The position numbers and the translations under genes were made by a program. Below, in pieces: positions 15,518 to 63,693 of a DNA stretch of 64,000 nt; positions within the stretch are counted from its first letter, which is position 1; the number at the start of each line of letters is the position of its first letter. The stretch comes from a virus. Where the stretch lies: positions 32,001 to 96,000 of IMG/VR virus record IMGVR_UViG_3300042892_004016, one strand, 5' to 3'. The notes beneath the pieces are model-generated. The model was given only the letters and a program-made list of their open reading frames with translations, was not told where the DNA came from and did no database searches.

Positions 15518-15538
15518 GATTATTCCCTGTCCTTCTAG

Positions 15539-15544
15539 TATTTA
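15539..15544 (-). promoter_or_regulatory. Putative late promoter (GC)TAAATA driving the leftward baseplate operon
   Basis: Motif 21 nt upstream of ATG 15517, followed by purine-rich SD-like AAGGA. Confidence 0.65.
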
Positions 15545-15548
15545 GCCA

Positions 15549-15554
15549 TAAATA
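15549..15554 (+). promoter_or_regulatory. Putative late promoter (CA)TAAATA facing gp55
   Basis: Back-to-back with the leftward motif. Confidence 0.45.
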
Positions 15555-15588
15555 TTAGTGGTATTTTTACCTTTCTCCAAGAAATATA

Positions 15589-15618
15589 TTGCATTTCTAT
15601 TACGAAATATGTTATACT
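15589..15618 (+). promoter_or_regulatory. Sigma70-type promoter for gp55 (TTGCAT-18-TATACT, extended -10 TG)
   Basis: -35 TTGCAT 15589-15594; TGnTATACT 15610-15618. Confidence 0.6.
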
Positions 15619-15654
15619 TGTCCCAGTGACACAGTTCTAACCTAACCCTTACAT

Positions 15655-16594: not shown

Positions 16595-17608
16595 ATGAAC
16601 CTATTTAAAAAAGCAGCAATTTTCACAGATATACATTATGGACTTAAGAGCAACAGTTTACAGCATAATACCGATTGCGAGAATTTTGTAGATTGGTTTA
16701 TAGCTCATGCAAAACGTGAGGGATGTGAAACTTGTTTGTTTTTGGGTGACTTCAATCATCATCGTGCCAGTATCAATATTCAAACTCTGCAGTTTGGGTT
16801 GCGTGCCTTAGAAAAACTAAGTGCAAACTTTGATACTGTGTACTTTATTCCAGGCAATCATGATTTATATTATCGTGATCGCAGAGACATTCACTCAGTT
16901 GAGTGGGCCAAGCATTTGCCAAATGTAGTTATTGTCAATGACTGGTTCACTCAGGGTGATGTTACTATTGCTCCCTGGTTAGTTCAAGACGATCATAAAA
17001 AATTACCCAAGCTAAGTGGCAAGTATCTGTTTGGTCACTTTGAGTTGCCCAACTTCTACATGAACGCCAAAGTTCTGATGCCTGACCACGGTGAGATCAG
17101 AGATGAGCACATGAGTGGTTTTGAAATGGCCTTCAGTGGACATTTTCATCATCGCCAAGCCAGAAAAAACATCTGGTACATTGGCAATGCCTTCCCACAC
17201 AACTATGCTGATGCAGGCGACGATGCTCGTGGCATGATGATATTGGATTGGGGACAAGAGCCTGAGTTTCACAGCTGGCCCAATCAACCACTGTTTCGTG
17301 TACACAAACTCAGCGATGTGCTGGAAAATCCTGAGGGATTGTTGTTGCCCAACAGTCATGTTAGAGTACACTTGGATATTGATATCAGCTACGAAGAAGC
17401 AAACTTTATACGAGAAACTCTGATTCCAAAACATAATTTACGTGAAATGGCATTGATTCCCATGAAACTGGATCAACTTGAAGCAGGAAACGACATTGCT
17501 GGATTGAGATTTGAGGGAGTTGATCAGATCGTTACTGAAAGCATTAACGCTATTGAAAGTGATAGCTTTGACAAAAAAATACTGCTGGATATCTATAATA
17601 ACCTATGA
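16595..17608 (+). CDS. gp47: Recombination endonuclease subunit (Mre11/SbcD-like metallophosphoesterase)
   Basis: DIH, GD, GNHD, GHFE and SGHFH calcineurin-like phosphoesterase motifs. Confidence 0.92.
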   Translation: MNLFKKAAIFTDIHYGLKSNSLQHNTDCENFVDWFIAHAKREGCETCLFLGDFNHHRASINIQTLQFGLRALEKLSANFDTVYFIPGNHDLYYRDRRDIHSVEWAKHLPNVVIVNDWFTQGDVTIAPWLVQDDHKKLPKLSGKYLFGHFELPNFYMNAKVLMPDHGEIRDEHMSGFEMAFSGHFHHRQARKNIWYIGNAFPHNYADAGDDARGMMILDWGQEPEFHSWPNQPLFRVHKLSDVLENPEGLLLPNSHVRVHLDIDISYEEANFIRETLIPKHNLREMALIPMKLDQLEAGNDIAGLRFEGVDQIVTESINAIESDSFDKKILLDIYNNL

Positions 17609-19371
17609 GCCTAACACTCAAGAACATAACACTTAAAAACTTTTTAAGCATTGGAGCTGTGTGCCAAGCAGTTAACTTTGATCAACAAGAACTGACCTTG
17701 ATTCTGGGTGAGAACCTTGACTTGGGTGGTGACGGTGCTCGCAATGGCACAGGCAAAACCAGTTTGATTCAGGCATTGAGCTATGCACTGTTTGGCATAC
17801 CAATCAACAATATTAAAAAAGACAATTTAGTAAACAGAACCAATGGTAAGAACATGGTGGTGACACTGGAGTTCAATATCAGTGGCGTTGAATACAAGAT
17901 TGTGCGCGGTCGCAAGCCCAATATTCTACAGTTCTTTATCAATGACCTAGAGCATTTGTCGCAGGACTCTGCTCAGGGTGACAGTAGAGAAACTCAAGTG
18001 GAGATTGAGCGAGTTATCAACATGAGTTCCGATATGTTCAAGCACATTGTTGCACTGAACACATACAGCGAACCGTTTCTGGCCATGCGGGCCAATGATC
18101 AACGTAACATCATTGAACAACTGTTGGGCATCACACTGTTGAGTGAGAAGGCCGAAACTATCAAGAACCTGATCAAAGAATCCAAAGACAACATACAACA
18201 AGAAGAATACAAGGTCAGAGCAATTGAAGAAGCCAACAAAAGAATCATTGAACAAATTGAGGGACTGGCCAGAAGACAGAGACTGTGGGTAACACGACAT
18301 CAAGAAGATGTGGTTGGCCTGCAGTCTGCCATTGATGAACTGTTAAAGATAGATATCACCAGTGAGATTCAAGCACATGCTGCACTGGATGTGTACAATC
18401 AGCGGGCTAAAGATATCAAGGACGTAAATGCGCTCAAGGTCAGAGCAGAACTGGACTTGACCAAAGAGTCTAAGACTCTGGACAAGTTAAAATCTGAAGT
18501 TACTTCATTGCAGAAACATGAATGCTATGCCTGTGGTCAAGATTTGCATGACGAAAAGCATGAACAGGTGTTGGCTGCTAAACAAAGGGCACTAGAAGAG
18601 GCTGCTCAGCAAGTGGTGACTACCAGTGGACAATTGGTAGAATTAACTCAGGCACTGGATGAATTGGGCGTGTTGGGCCTGGCTCCAGTGGTATTTTACG
18701 ATGACAAAGAAGATGCTATTCAACATCGCAGCAGTATTCAGAATCTTCAAGATCGTCTGGCCGCCAAAGTGGCAGAAACTGATCCATACAGCGAACAGAT
18801 TTCAGATATGGAAAACCAAGCACTACAGGCCATTGACTTTGACAAGATCAATCAGATAACCAAAACAATGGAACATCAGAAGTTCTTGTTAGATTTGTTA
18901 ACCAGCAAAGATTCGTTTGTTCGTAAAAAGATCATTGATCAAAATCTGTCTTTCTTGAATTCCAGACTCACACACTATCTGGATCGTATTGGCCTGCCTC
19001 ACCAAGTGGTTTTCTTAAATGACTTGTCAGTTGAGATTACTGAACTGGGTCGTAGTTTAGACTTTGGTAACTTGAGCCGCGGCGAGGCCAACAGACTGAT
19101 CTTGGGATTGAGTTTTGCATTCCGTGATGTGTGGGAGAATCTGTACAGTCCCATTAACACACTGTTCATTGATGAATTGATTGACAGTGGACTAGACTCC
19201 ATGGGAGTTGAAAACAGCCTAGCAGTATTGAAGTCCATGTCCAGAACCAGAAACAAATCCATATGGTTGGTCAGTCACCGTGAAGAACTTGCAGGCCGAG
19301 TTCACAGCGTATTGCGAGTAACCAAAGAAAATGGATTCACAACATACAGTACCAGTACCGAAATGGAGTAA
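17605..19371 (+). CDS. gp46: Recombination ATPase subunit (Rad50/SbcC-like)
   Basis: Walker A NGTGKT, coiled coils with CYAC zinc hook, signature LSRGE, Walker B LFIDE, H-loop VSH. Confidence 0.93.
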   Translation: MSLTLKNITLKNFLSIGAVCQAVNFDQQELTLILGENLDLGGDGARNGTGKTSLIQALSYALFGIPINNIKKDNLVNRTNGKNMVVTLEFNISGVEYKIVRGRKPNILQFFINDLEHLSQDSAQGDSRETQVEIERVINMSSDMFKHIVALNTYSEPFLAMRANDQRNIIEQLLGITLLSEKAETIKNLIKESKDNIQQEEYKVRAIEEANKRIIEQIEGLARRQRLWVTRHQEDVVGLQSAIDELLKIDITSEIQAHAALDVYNQRAKDIKDVNALKVRAELDLTKESKTLDKLKSEVTSLQKHECYACGQDLHDEKHEQVLAAKQRALEEAAQQVVTTSGQLVELTQALDELGVLGLAPVVFYDDKEDAIQHRSSIQNLQDRLAAKVAETDPYSEQISDMENQALQAIDFDKINQITKTMEHQKFLLDLLTSKDSFVRKKIIDQNLSFLNSRLTHYLDRIGLPHQVVFLNDLSVEITELGRSLDFGNLSRGEANRLILGLSFAFRDVWENLYSPINTLFIDELIDSGLDSMGVENSLAVLKSMSRTRNKSIWLVSHREELAGRVHSVLRVTKENGFTTYSTSTEME

Positions 19372-19417
19372 AATATGCTGCTATTCCAAATAAAATTTCA
19401 ATAGCGCATAAGTAAGA

Positions 19418-19428: not shown

Positions 19429-19986
19429 ATGAGTTCACCGAGCAAAAATAAAGGATCAGGATTTGAGCGAGAAATCGCCAAGTTCTTGTCTGAATCATAC
19501 AGCGAAAGTTTCATCAGAGCACCGGGATCTGGAGCGTATGTGGGAGGTAAGAATCAAAGCCGCACTGAAGTTTTGCATGCTGGTCAGATTCGCAGTTTCA
19601 AAGGGGACATCGTTCCCGGAGAAAGCTTTCCCAAATTCAATGCTGAATGCAAGTTCTACGGTGATTTCACATTCCACTTATTACTCAACGGAGAACATAA
19701 GGTTTTAGATAGTTGGATAGAGCAACTGCTAGCAGTGGCTGATCCAGGTGATCTAAATATACTTTTTATGAAATTTAACAGGAAAGGTCGTTATGTACTT
19801 GTACAGTGCGAGCTTACTTGGATCACTGATAATTTCTTCTTTTACGGAAGTAAAAAACACGGTGATTGGTACCTTATGGAATTTGATAGTTTTTTCAAGC
19901 ACAACACAGATTTAGTTAAATTATACTCCGGCTCACCAGACACCACGTCAATTCACAGCAGTACACCCAACACAGAAGTAGTTTAA
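19429..19986 (+). CDS. Holliday junction resolvase-like PD-(D/E)xK nuclease (Hjc type)
   Basis: KNKGSGFERE...R.PGSGA...GDI...ECK motif pattern; follows gp46. Confidence 0.75.
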   Translation: MSSPSKNKGSGFEREIAKFLSESYSESFIRAPGSGAYVGGKNQSRTEVLHAGQIRSFKGDIVPGESFPKFNAECKFYGDFTFHLLLNGEHKVLDSWIEQLLAVADPGDLNILFMKFNRKGRYVLVQCELTWITDNFFFYGSKKHGDWYLMEFDSFFKHNTDLVKLYSGSPDTTSIHSSTPNTEVV

Positions 19987-20009
19987 ACACAACAGCAGTA
20001 AAAAAATTA

Positions 20010-20475
20010 GTTTGATCGAGGTTCCTCGATCCTCCTTGAGTCAGCCGGGGTAAGGCCCGTAGCCGATGGATCTGGAGTATGCCCAAGAGTGATCTTGGGG
20101 AATACCGAGAGGGCAATCAATATAGGGAACCCTCAATGAGTTTATAGTACACTTTGTCTTGAAACTATAAAACATGCGTCGCGGAAGAATTGTGTTAGGC
20201 ACAATAGCTTCACTACAGTCCCATCAAACTTTACAGAGCGACCGGTGGCGAATAATAGCAGAAAAGAGCTGATTATTCGGGGAACAGACAACAAAGGATG
20301 ATGGTCATGGCATGTTTATGATTTTTCCATTGGTAGTGCTTAATAGCACTACCATGGCTTCTAATCGGCATGTGAGTCTTAATACTAATAAGATACCAGT
20401 AAATTAATCCCGAACATATGAGTGAGTGAAACGAACGAATAGAGAAGGGATTAGATGAGCGTTAGCTCATCTCTA
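20010..20475 (+). ncRNA. Candidate large structured non-coding RNA and/or ssDNA origin element (unassigned)
   Basis: About 12 helices in 460 nt with no credible ORF. Examples: GATCGAG/CTCGATC 20014-20031; CCCAAGA-GTGA-TCTTGGG 20082-20099; TTTATAGT/ACTATAAA 20141-20171; ATTGTG/CACAAT 20189-20205; CCATCA/TGATGG 20221-20304; CGAATAAT/ATTATTCG 20249-20279; TGGTAGTGCT/AGCACTACCA 20331-20354; AGATGAGC/GCTCATCT 20453-20472. Confidence 0.6.
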
Positions 20476-20519
20476 GAGTAGTAAATGATATAACCCATTA
20501 GCATATGGTGTGCTATGGC

Positions 20520-20696
20520 TTAGAAGAATGGCATCTGTGATTTCTTGGTAGTCTCTAAGTTTTCTTCAATAATCTCATTAAGTGATACCAGTTCGTCAGG
20601 ACTCATGTTCAACACATCAGTATAAGATACTGACCCGCGCATGTACCAGGCTATTCTTTGTGCGTTCTTTTTGATAGCCTTTACGTCTTTCTCCAT
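20520..20696 (-). CDS. gp51: Small baseplate hub assembly chaperone, gp51-like (58 aa; probably made as a -1 frameshift extension of the gp26-like gene)
   Basis: Below the ORF-track cutoff: MEKDVKAIKKNAQRIAWYMRGSVSYTDVLNMSPDELVSLNEIIEENLETTKKSQMPFF. Frame stays open upstream to 20756, overlapping the end of the gp26-like ORF. Confidence 0.65.
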   Translation of the reverse strand: MEKDVKAIKKNAQRIAWYMRGSVSYTDVLNMSPDELVSLNEIIEENLETTKKSQMPFF

Positions 20697-20706
20697 ATTT
20701 TCAACC

Positions 20707-20756
20707 AGCTTCGTTATACCCGGGGAGTCTAGGTATAGAAGCTTTAGCCGAAAAAA
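20707..20756 (-). promoter_or_regulatory. Programmed -1 ribosomal frameshift signal (T TTT TTC + 6-nt spacer + stem-loop)
   Basis: Heptamer at 20756-20750; stem AGCTTC-TATACC/GGTATA-(AC)-GAAGCT at 20743-20707. Confidence 0.7.
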
Positions 20757-21574
20757 TCGCTTACATTCAACGTGAATGGTTGATCATATTCATGTTGACA
20801 ACTGTTACATGCGATATGCAACGGCTTGGTCTGCGTAGTCTCTCTTAGTGCCACACTGCGATCTTTGATCATATCAAACGTGTTCTTGTCAGTGTTGTAC
20901 AAGAAATCCAGTATGTATGGCTTTTCAGTAACCACTAGTTCTGGTGTGGCAATGTATTCAATGGTATTGGCCAGTACTTCTACCGTGGAATCAGATATGA
21001 TCTTCAGTGCTTCACTTGTTCTTTTTTCTTTATCTGCTCCTTCTTCCATGGCGCTGATACTGTAGAACAGCTTTTGCATCTCAAACTGCTTGATGGTACT
21101 GGCAGTGAGTTCTTTGAATGACAGTGATTTGAACTTGATTTTGAGATCGTTGATATGCAGTGGAATCTCATAATCACCGGGTACAAAGTTGTTGAGTACA
21201 ATACTCAAACTAACGCCATATTGTGCTGTTTCGCTGCAGCTGGGGCAAGTGACTTCCATTTCCATTTCATTGCCGTTTGTTGCAATTTTGATAGCCACCA
21301 GTATGGCATCCAGATCAGTGCTGCTGATTGCCCAGGCATCGTGTATGCAGGGTACGCAACTGCGTATGATGTCTACAACTGCGCTGCCGTTGTACAGTGC
21401 GTCTGGGGTTTTGCTGGTAATCTCATCAATTGCCGTCATGGGATAGACTGGAATTTCTCCGGTTTCGGGCATAGAAATAGTGGCTGCAGTGTAGCCCAAG
21501 CCCCTGCTGGGCAATTTCAAATAGATGCCGGGTCTGCGAAAATACTGTTTTAGTGGGTTATGATCTATGCTCAT
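20744..21574 (-). CDS. gp26: Baseplate hub / tail assembly chaperone, gp26-like (276 aa)
   Basis: Y.KLPS.G, PMTA.DE, D.DAIL.AI.IAT.G, two CxxC pairs (CPSC, CNSC), C-terminal DFFG. Confidence 0.75.
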   Translation of the reverse strand: MSIDHNPLKQYFRRPGIYLKLPSRGLGYTAATISMPETGEIPVYPMTAIDEITSKTPDALYNGSAVVDIIRSCVPCIHDAWAISSTDLDAILVAIKIATNGNEMEMEVTCPSCSETAQYGVSLSIVLNNFVPGDYEIPLHINDLKIKFKSLSFKELTASTIKQFEMQKLFYSISAMEEGADKEKRTSEALKIISDSTVEVLANTIEYIATPELVVTEKPYILDFLYNTDKNTFDMIKDRSVALRETTQTKPLHIACNSCQHEYDQPFTLNVSDFFG

Positions 21575-63666: not shown

Positions 63667-63693
63667 ACAAAGATCAACACAGTTGATCTTTGT
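63667..63693 (+). terminator. Perfect 12-bp hairpin, probable terminator or processing site
   Basis: ACAAAGATCAAC-aca-GTTGATCTTTGT. Confidence 0.6.

What the first reader, a model, noticed from the sequence alone, without database searches (positions are those of the whole stretch)
20405..20472. Tandem sheared G.A hairpin with GAA triloop: ssDNA-type signal, candidate replication origin next to the structured RNA
Seen: inside a TAATCCC/GGGATTA stem (20405-20411/20447-20453) lies TAT-GA-GT-GA-GT-GAA-AC-GA-AC-GA-ATA. This is a symmetric hairpin if GA/GA tandem mismatches are allowed. It is followed by AGATGAGC-GTTA-GCTCATCT. Established: GNA triloops and tandem sheared G.A pairs are especially stable in single-stranded DNA, and ssDNA hairpins act as priming signals at plasmid and phage origins. 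Inference: an RNA-like 5' part followed by a DNA-like hairpin 3' part parallels ColE1-type logic (structured primer RNA, then a primosome site). The whole interval may be the phage origin, at a convergent transcription junction next to recombination genes.
Basis: partly seen in the sequence, partly recalled or inferred. Interest (0 to 1): 0.7.

Follow-up and report, generated by a model that had tools for sequence, protein, structure and literature searches.

The report
Conserved G·A double hairpin behind phage RNA
The odd hairpin with G·A mismatches is real and is kept, by matched base changes, in over a hundred related giant lake phages as a single-copy pair of hairpins just behind a large non-coding RNA gene. 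It looks more like the tail end of that RNA than a replication origin, though a role as folded single-stranded DNA is not excluded.

Summary
Observation confirmed. Window 20406-20452 folds on the + strand into a hairpin (H1) with two tandem G·A steps and a GAA loop. It abuts an 8-bp hairpin, H2 (20453-20472), whose apex GCGTTAGC is a classic DNA mini-hairpin sequence.

In about 120 distinct relatives from uncultured T4-like jumbo phages:
- The H1+H2 module occurs once per locus.
- It lies 0-61 nt 3' of a ~360-nt covarying structured RNA, in fixed synteny.
- 14 of 16 stem pairs show compensatory changes.
- The GA dinucleotides, the C-G closing pairs and the G(N)NA loops are nearly invariant.
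- G-U pairs make up about 1% of module pairs, against 6.7% in the neighbouring RNA.

The origin reading itself gains nothing:
- The AT-skew minimum and strand switch lie 4-5 kb away.
- The site sits between convergent genes.
- No T4-type origin promoter is present.
- One metatranscriptome contig runs from the RNA core through H1 into H2.
- The strict mini-hairpin rule (two G-C pairs) holds in only about a fifth of relatives.

Best reading (0.45): the module is a strand-specific 3' domain or boundary of the ncRNA. An ssDNA signal is the main rival (0.3). This scan had already met the same module in a related phage (e1-5342574).

The parts
20406..20452 (+). H1, the G·A hairpin. Outer stem AATCCC/GGGATT (20406-11/20447-52). 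Purine-rich internal loop (GAACA / GAGAA). TAT/ATA (20417-19/20439-41). Tandem G·A step 1 (GA 20420-21 with GA 20437-38). GT/AC (20422-23/20435-36). Tandem G·A step 2 (20424-25 with 20433-34). GT/AC (20426-27/20431-32). GAA loop (20428-30).
   Evidence: Sequence. Folds. Family covariation: AC/GT, GC/GC, GT/AC and AT/AT apical pairs, and outer stems AAGAAC/GTTCTT, AAGTCT/AGACTT, ATACC/GGTAT and others.
20453..20472 (+). H2: 8-bp hairpin AGATGAGC-GTTA-GCTCATCT, abutting H1 with no spacer. The apex GCGTTAGC is a DNA mini-hairpin sequence.
   Evidence: Covariation in 6 of 8 pairs. Closing pair C-G in 114 of 119 relatives; loops GAA 83, GTA 6, GTTA 5, GCTA 4 and others; first and last two bases AG..CT in 105 of 119; H1-H2 gap 0 in 109 of 119.
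20373..20405 (+). A-rich variable linker between the structured RNA core and H1.
   Evidence: Family: median length 45 nt (range 0-61), 78% A+T, 50% A, against a genome A+T of 57%. Not alignable between clades.
20010..20372 (+). Core of the large structured ncRNA that the module always follows.
   Evidence: RNAalifold: 76-90 pairs, 47 with compensatory changes; 259 G-U cells against 16 A-C cells, so the + strand is the RNA strand. No Rfam family matches.
20495..20518 (.). H3-like hairpin CCAT(T)AGCA-TATGGTG-TGCTATGG, directly before the stop codon (20520-22) of the convergent - strand gene. It has an A-rich + strand flank, which is a U-rich flank on the - strand. Probable terminator of the - strand baseplate operon.
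   Evidence: Sequence. In most relatives the equivalent hairpin (ACCCG..CGGGT, GAGAGAAC..GTTCTCTC, ACCGTA..TACGGT) covaries and carries the conserved loop GATAAATGAAYA.

Best explanation
H1 and H2 are the conserved 3' domain of the transcription unit that makes the large jumbo-phage ncRNA. Transcription of the + strand runs through the ~360-nt core and the A-rich linker. There is no terminator between them. It then passes into two hairpins that probably stack end to end (no spacer lies between them). On the RNA strand the tandem sheared G·A steps and the G(N)NA loops closed by C-G make a rigid, strand-specific handle. On the opposite strand the same letters give U·C/C·U mismatches and a much weaker fold. 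The inferred job is to mark and protect the 3' end of the ncRNA by blocking 3'-to-5' exonucleases. It would also keep + strand transcripts from running antisense into the baseplate genes. Most likely it offers a binding platform for a protein that reads the G·A minor-groove surface.

Shown: the fold, its selection, its strand specificity, its single copy and its fixed linkage to the RNA.

Inferred: that it acts as RNA, that it defines or protects the 3' end, and that a protein reads it.
For: - Exactly one module per locus in 927 kb of relatives, always just 3' of the core RNA; one in the 64-kb window and none elsewhere in the 116-kb record.
- No terminator separates core and module: the core's last helix is closed by a long-range pair, and the linker follows directly.
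- An RNA-library contig (X17, 165 nt) covers 20299-20461, running from the core 3' part through the linker and H1 into H2. It is the only piece of the 3.5-kb stretch assembled in that run.
- In most relatives a separate hairpin H3 with A/U tracts lies between H2 and the convergent gene's stop. H1-H2 are therefore inside the + RNA and outside the - mRNA.
- H1 varies in length (15-68 nt by my parse), by adding GA-NN steps, bulges or whole branches (L133), as peripheral RNA domains do.
- The RNA energy model favours the + strand strongly: -23.7 against -16.8 kcal/mol.
- An H2-like stem (AGATCAAC/GTTGATCT) serves as an ordinary terminator hairpin at 63667-63693.
Against: - The style of the module differs from that of the core RNA. 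There are almost no G-U pairs. Loops are G-N-A or G-N-N-A with a pyrimidine at the third place (GATA, GTTA, GCTA) rather than GNRA or UUCG, although this genome uses C(UUCG)G in a true terminator.
- r(GCGAAAGC) is far less stable than its DNA form (PMC13037366).
- H2 lacks a U tract: on average 2.6 T in the next 8 nt. Intrinsic termination there is therefore doubtful.
- The RNA evidence is one short contig without strand information. The long 'RNA' contigs of X10 and X16 span genes of both strands and may be DNA.
- No binding protein is identified.
Confidence: 0.45

Rival explanations
1. The module acts as folded single-stranded DNA. When the + (non-template) strand is exposed, by an R-loop made by the ncRNA transcript or as lagging-strand template, H1 and H2 snap into SSB-resistant mini-hairpins. 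These would mark a site for priming or helicase loading (an origin or ssi-type signal), or for another DNA transaction such as nicking or recombination.
For: - The C-G(N)NA-G apexes of both hairpins are nearly invariant.
- The window's H2 apex is GCGTTAGC, as at the St-1/alpha3 origins. Relatives have GCGAAGC and CCGAAGG, the latter as in RSF1010 ssiA.
- The loop preference GAA > GCA/GTA matches the stability order of d(GCGNAGC).
- G-T pairs are avoided: 0 one-sided changes in 544 cells.
- All G·A steps sit in Py-GA-Pu context.
- An A/T-rich linker lies next to the module.
- It is single-copy per genome.
Against: - The skew minimum and strand switch are 4-5 kb away.
- Genes converge on the site.
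- No T4-type middle promoter or iterons are present.
- The two G-C pairs said to be essential for the extraordinarily stable DNA form are present in only 24 of 121 H1 and 20 of 121 H2 apexes. The window's own H1 loop is closed by T-A.
- The few wobble pairs that do occur are G-T on the + strand, as expected for RNA.
- An A-rich RNA over a T-rich template makes a poor R-loop (own knowledge).
- The region is present in an RNA library.
Confidence: 0.3
2. The module is simply part of a composite, two-way transcription stop between the ncRNA unit and the convergent baseplate-hub operon, with no further recognition role.
For: - It sits exactly between convergent units.
- In clades without H3 the stop codon of the - gene touches H2.
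- The A-rich linker becomes a U-rich tract after H1 on the - strand RNA.
- An H2-like stem is a terminator elsewhere in the window.
Against: - True terminators of this genome are single hairpins flanked by A and T runs (28475, 32380, 63667). H2 has no U tract.
- The conserved G·A pairs weaken the - strand hairpin and are unnecessary for a + strand terminator.
- Most relatives carry a separate terminator-like H3.
Confidence: 0.1
3. H1 is a tertiary-contact or switching domain of the ncRNA. Together with the linker box ACCGU it would dock onto or re-pair with the core (the boxes GAYGG), so that the 3' region is part of the RNA's working fold.
For: - The linker ACCGU is complementary to the core loop box ACGGU. 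The window changes both together (CCAG with AUGGU), and L161 extends the match to 7 bp.
- G-U wobble variants occur: 12 and 4 cells in the candidate outer helix.
Against: - There are no clear double compensatory changes apart from the window clade. L177 and L098 have mismatches, and several clades lack the linker box.
- My scan for co-varying twin boxes was inconclusive.
Confidence: 0.1

Closest known systems
DNA mini-hairpins d(GCGNAGC)/d(GCGNNAGC) at priming sites (G4, St-1, alpha3 complementary-strand origins; RSF1010 ssiA; N4 early promoters), reviewed in PMC13037366
   Same: Loops G-N-A or G-N-N-A closed by C-G, with a sheared G·A. The window's H2 apex is GCGTTAGC; relatives carry GCGAAGC, GCGATAGC and CCGAAGG. 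GAA is preferred. Strand-specific.
   Different: Most family members have A-T as the second pair (ACGAAGT), which the review says does not give the extraordinary stability. The setting is a dsDNA jumbo phage next to an RNA gene, not an ssDNA replicon. No priming is shown. The tandem G·A internal steps are not part of the mini-hairpin definition.
3' stabilising or boundary hairpins of bacterial and phage transcripts (intrinsic terminators; REP-type intercistronic stabilisers)
   Same: Position at the end of a transcription unit between convergent genes, a stable hairpin pair, and an H2-like stem used as a terminator elsewhere in the window.
   Different: No U tract after H2. Single-copy rather than dispersed. 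Conserved non-Watson-Crick steps and loop identities imply specific recognition.
PeSL (promoter-early stem-loop) cassettes of T4-type phages (PMC2839356)
   Same: A stem-loop at gene boundaries in T4-type genomes.
   Different: PeSLs are multi-copy, lie in hyperplastic regions, pair a sigma-70 promoter with polyG/polyC stems and mediate shuffling. This module is single-copy, in fixed synteny, G·A-containing and without an adjacent early promoter.
ColE1 RNA II / pas site and T4 ori(uvsY)/ori(34) R-loop origins
   Same: The order 'structured or promoter-proximal RNA, then an A/T-rich stretch, then a hairpin on the displaced strand' is formally similar.
   Different: No antisense RNA, G-rich hybrid-forming run, MotA-box promoter or promoter-adjacent DUE was found. 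The skew gives no support. Known T4 origins are not conserved structured elements (own knowledge).

Membership tests
DNA mini-hairpin (Hirao): GCGNAGC / GCGNNAGC | Loop G-N-A or G-N-N-A with a sheared G·A | tested here: met
   H1 loops: GAA 75, GATA 13, GCA 7, GTA 5 and others. H2 loops: GAA 83, GTA 6, GTTA 5, GCTA 4 and others. Window: GAA (H1) and GTTA (H2).
DNA mini-hairpin (Hirao): GCGNAGC / GCGNNAGC | Two terminal G-C pairs (GC-GC or CC-GG), stated as essential | tested here: not met
   Met in 24 of 121 H1 and 20 of 121 H2 apexes only (rule). In the window it is met by H2 (GC-GTTA-GC) but not by H1 (GT-GAA-AC).
DNA mini-hairpin (Hirao): GCGNAGC / GCGNNAGC | Acts as single-stranded DNA (SSB-resistant, primase- or polymerase-recognised) | not testable with these tools
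   Needs biochemistry. Indirect only: G-T avoidance.
Intrinsic (Rho-independent) terminator | Stable hairpin immediately followed by a U tract on the transcribed strand | tested here: not met
   On average 2.6 T in the 8 nt after H2; the window has CTAGAGTA. The genome's canonical terminators carry T runs.
T4-type R-loop origin (oriF/oriG) | Middle-mode (MotA box) promoter with an adjacent DNA unwinding element | tested here: not met
   No TGCTT-type box or sigma-70 hexamers upstream of the core in the family alignment. The A-rich tract lies ~360 nt downstream of the RNA start.
Replication origin (general) | Inflection of cumulative skew or divergent gene orientation at the site | tested here: not met
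   The AT-skew minimum and the - to + gene switch are at record ~48 kb (window ~15.5-16.6 kb). The hairpin sits at 52.4 kb between convergent genes. Only 116 kb of a roughly 400-kb genome is held.
Kink-turn | Three-nucleotide bulge on one strand followed by tandem G·A / A·G | tested here: not met
   The G·A steps lie in symmetric 2x2 loops (or 2x3 loops in extended forms). No 3-nt/0-nt bulge is present.
PeSL cassette | Multi-copy; early promoter plus stem-loop | tested here: not met
   One copy per locus and per record; no promoter consensus.
Any Rfam family | Covariance-model match | tested here: not met
   No hit at gathering score in 64 kb. Only chance-level hits at E up to 10 in 19700-20800.

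The most novel reading that the evidence does not exclude
A whole clade of T4-like jumbo phages keeps one RNA-primed replication start. The structured ncRNA would be the primer or R-loop former, and the tandem G·A/GNA mini-hairpins would fold on the displaced DNA strand as the SSB-proof loading or priming signal. That would be a conserved, sequence-defined origin in a phage group thought to lack one.
Probability: 0.15. Interest if true: 0.8.

Novelty: new variant of a known kind. Interest (0 to 1): 0.5.

Why it matters
The module is a rare case where comparative data can ask whether a hairpin is read as RNA or as single-stranded DNA. The answer here is mixed: DNA-type loops and wobble avoidance, but inside a transcribed RNA gene. 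If it is the 3' handle of the uncatalogued jumbo-phage ncRNA, it gives a defined bait (about 70 nt) for finding the RNA's protein partner and therefore its function. If it is a DNA signal, it would mark the first conserved origin-like site in this large group of uncultured lake phages.

Tried and rejected
- **Rfam:** no family matched, at gathering and at E up to 10.
- **Phage records:** blastn of the interval against 50,697 phage records gave no match.
- **Motif checks by eye:** hammerhead, C/D box, sarcin-ricin and K-turn readings of the GA motif do not fit the consensus.
- **RNase P:** the resemblance of the core (GGAAUACCG / ACAGAGCAACCGG) was recalled from memory only. The topology differs and no model matches, so I dropped it.
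- **PeSL cassettes:** read and rejected.
- **RNA runs:** the X10 and X16 contigs of 3.4-6.5 kb span genes on both strands and say nothing about ends. X18 left 20289-20866 uncovered, which is no evidence.
- **Late promoter:** a T4-late-promoter reading of TATAAAAAT upstream of the core is unconvincing. The genome's own motif is (G/A)ATAAATA, and the window has GTAAAAAAAT.
- **Long-range helix** ACCGTAA/TTACGG around H1-H2: only one-sided (wobble) changes, no double compensation.
- **Twin-box scan:** inconclusive.
- **H3-H2 pairing:** pairing of the H3 loop with the H2 3' arm shows no covariation.
- **Contig ends:** an excess of contig ends inside the core RNA was glimpsed in the tables but not quantified.
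- **Fold z-scores:** DNA and RNA z-scores do not discriminate.

Full report
**Where it is.** The window is bases 32001-96000 of a 115.9-kb uncultured virus record, estimated about 28% complete. That makes it a jumbo phage.

The genes around the finding are T4-like:
- SbcD/gp47-like, 16595-17608 (+).
- SbcC/gp46-like, 17605-19371 (+).
- A small PDDEXK_15 / RusA-like nuclease, 19429-19986 (+).
- A 533-nt gene-free gap, 19987-20519.
- A 58-aa ORF, 20520-20696 (-).
- A gp26-like baseplate hub gene, 20744-21574 (-).

The finding covers the 3' fifth of the gap.

One correction: A20453 is shared by both proposed stems. By family analogy H1 is therefore 20406-20452 and H2 is 20453-20472.

- RNA model: -23.7 kcal/mol, z = -4.65, none of 200 shuffles as good.
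- The reverse strand keeps only the outer stem and H2, at -16.8 kcal/mol.

**It is under selection.**
- The neighbouring nuclease has 412 relatives in viral contigs.
- A 26-nt pattern from the RNA core hits at least 119 more contigs, some 350-525 kb long.
- Of 126 distinct downstream regions, 123 carry GA-NN-loop-NN-GA with complementary NN. The counts are AC/GAA/GT 71, GC/GATA/GC 15, AC/GCA/GT 7, GC/GAA/GC 7, the window's GT/GAA/AC 3, and others.
- All G·A steps sit in pyrimidine-GA-purine context.
- A hand-checked alignment of 34 distinct simple forms gives 98% paired cells and compensatory changes in 14 of 16 pairs. None of 500 shuffles reaches the score, and slid registers fall to about 35% paired.
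- Clades differ in the number of G·A steps, from one to three, each separated by two Watson-Crick pairs. One divergent member (L133) replaces H1 by a branched GC-rich structure.

H2 is constant in form:
- 8 bp.
- C-G closing pair in 114 of 119.
- Loop GAA in 83 of 119, otherwise mostly G-N-A or G-N-N-A.
- AG..CT at its ends in 105 of 119.
- No spacer after H1 in 109 of 119.

**What it belongs to.** The gap upstream holds a large structured RNA on the + strand.
- It has 76-90 predicted pairs, 47 with compensatory changes.
- It has 259 G-U cells against 16 A-C cells.
- It includes long-range helices.
- It matches no Rfam family.

A covariance model of H1+H2 finds exactly one site per locus in 927 kb of relatives. 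That site is always just 3' of this RNA. The model finds one site in the 64-kb window. A motif scan finds no other copy in the 116-kb record.

Synteny is fixed in all loci with enough flank: gp46, nuclease, RNA plus module, then the convergent 58-aa ORF and the gp26-like gene.

The linker between core and H1 has a median length of 45 nt. It is 78% A+T and half A, and it does not align between clades.

Most relatives have a third hairpin, H3, between H2 and the stop codon of the convergent gene.
- Its stem covaries: ACCCG/CGGGT, GAGAGAAC/GTTCTCTC, ACCGTA/TACGGT.
- Its loop GATAAATGAAYA is conserved.
- Its A-rich + strand flank is a U tract on the - strand.
- It therefore looks like the terminator of the baseplate operon.
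- The window's analogue is at 20495-20518.

- No one-sided change occurs in 544 cells of the simple forms.
- G-U makes up about 1% of module pairs, even by a permissive minimum-energy count. In the core RNA it is 6.7%.
- The loops are not the GNRA or UUCG types. The core RNA does have a GNRA loop (GUGA), and a true terminator of this genome uses C(UUCG)G. The module's tetraloops mostly have a pyrimidine at the third place.
- These features match the DNA mini-hairpin GCGNAGC/GCGNNAGC described at the G4, St-1 and alpha3 origins, RSF1010 ssiA and N4 promoters. The RNA form of that mini-hairpin melts about 37 degrees lower (PMC13037366).
- The window's H2 apex is GCGTTAGC, the St-1/alpha3 sequence.

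Several points weaken the DNA reading.
[quoted passage not shown] Only 24 of 121 H1 and 20 of 121 H2 apexes have them, and the window's H1 loop is closed by T-A.
- The rare wobbles that exist are G-T on the + strand.
- A 165-nt contig from a metatranscriptome (X17) covers 20299-20461. It bridges core, linker, H1 and the 5' arm of H2. It is the only part of a 3.5-kb stretch assembled in that run. This is a weak hint that the module is part of an abundant RNA.
- Contigs cannot show ends or strand, and the other RNA runs were uninformative.

**Origin?**
- The cumulative AT skew has its minimum where genes switch from the - to the + strand. That is at window ~15.5-16.6 kb, with the intergenic gap at 15518-15654. 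It lies 4-5 kb from the hairpin.
- Skew here follows gene orientation, and the record is a fragment, so this test is weak. It gives no support.
- The hairpin lies between convergent genes.
- I found no MotA-type or sigma-70-type promoter upstream of the RNA. The late-promoter resemblance there is poor.
- The linker is A-rich on the RNA strand. That is unfavourable for a persistent hybrid (own knowledge).

**Terminator?**
- The genome's clear terminators (28475, 32380, 63667) are single hairpins flanked by A and T runs.
- H2 has on average 2.6 T in the next 8 nt.
- The stem at 63667-63693 (AGATCAAC/GTTGATCT) is nearly the family consensus of H2, so H2 may derive from a terminator hairpin.
- A plain terminator would not explain the conserved G·A steps, nor why H3 exists as well.

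**Verdict.** The structure is real, strand-specific, single-copy and tied to the ncRNA.
- I rank it as the RNA's 3' domain, serving end definition or protection and probable protein binding, at 0.45.
- A function as folded single-stranded DNA stays a serious rival at 0.30, because of the loop type and the wobble avoidance.
- A bare two-way terminator is at 0.10.
- A docking or switching domain of the RNA is at 0.10.

The specific claim of a replication origin is not supported by any test I could run.

The scan has met the same module before in a related phage (e1-5342574) and reached a similar, unresolved verdict. Here I add:
- the wobble census against the core RNA;
- the RNA contig;
- the comparison with the genome's own terminators;
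- the skew result;
- the strict mini-hairpin rule.

Noticed in passing
window 20495-20518; relatives e.g. L166, L185: A third covarying hairpin lies right after the stop codon of the convergent gene. Its loop GATAAATGAAYA is strongly conserved and resembles the genome's (G/A)ATAAATA late-promoter-like motif. L185 carries the hairpin twice.
   Followed up: partly
window 20032-20040 and alignment A1 columns 58-66: The core RNA carries an invariant CCUCCUUGAG directly after its 5' hairpin. This resembles the anti-Shine-Dalgarno end of 16S rRNA. RNAalifold pairs CUCC with a conserved GGAG about 40 nt downstream.
   Followed up: no
window 20068-20072, 20298-20302, 20393-20396: The boxes GAYGG in the core (twice) and the linker box CCRU change together in the window clade (ACGG to AUGG, CCGU to CCAG). 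This hints at a pseudoknot between the linker and a core loop. The support is uneven across clades.
   Followed up: partly
window 15518-15654: This 137-nt gap lies at the major switch from - strand to + strand genes and at the cumulative AT-skew minimum of the 116-kb record. On skew grounds it is a better place than 20.4 kb to look for an origin.
   Followed up: no
window 63667-63693: A canonical two-way terminator ACAAAGATCAAC-ACA-GTTGATCTTTGT follows a 990-aa gene. Its stem is almost the family consensus of H2 (AGATGAAC/GTTCATCT).
   Followed up: partly
window 19295-19415: Contigs of two runs (X10, X16) replace 119 nt between the gp46-like and nuclease genes by 771 other letters. A relative therefore has an insertion there.
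   Followed up: no
window 34166, 63733: AATAAATA motifs sit only 4 nt before the ATG of two genes. That is too close for a T4-style late promoter start. They may act in translation initiation or reflect a host that does not use Shine-Dalgarno sites.
   Followed up: no
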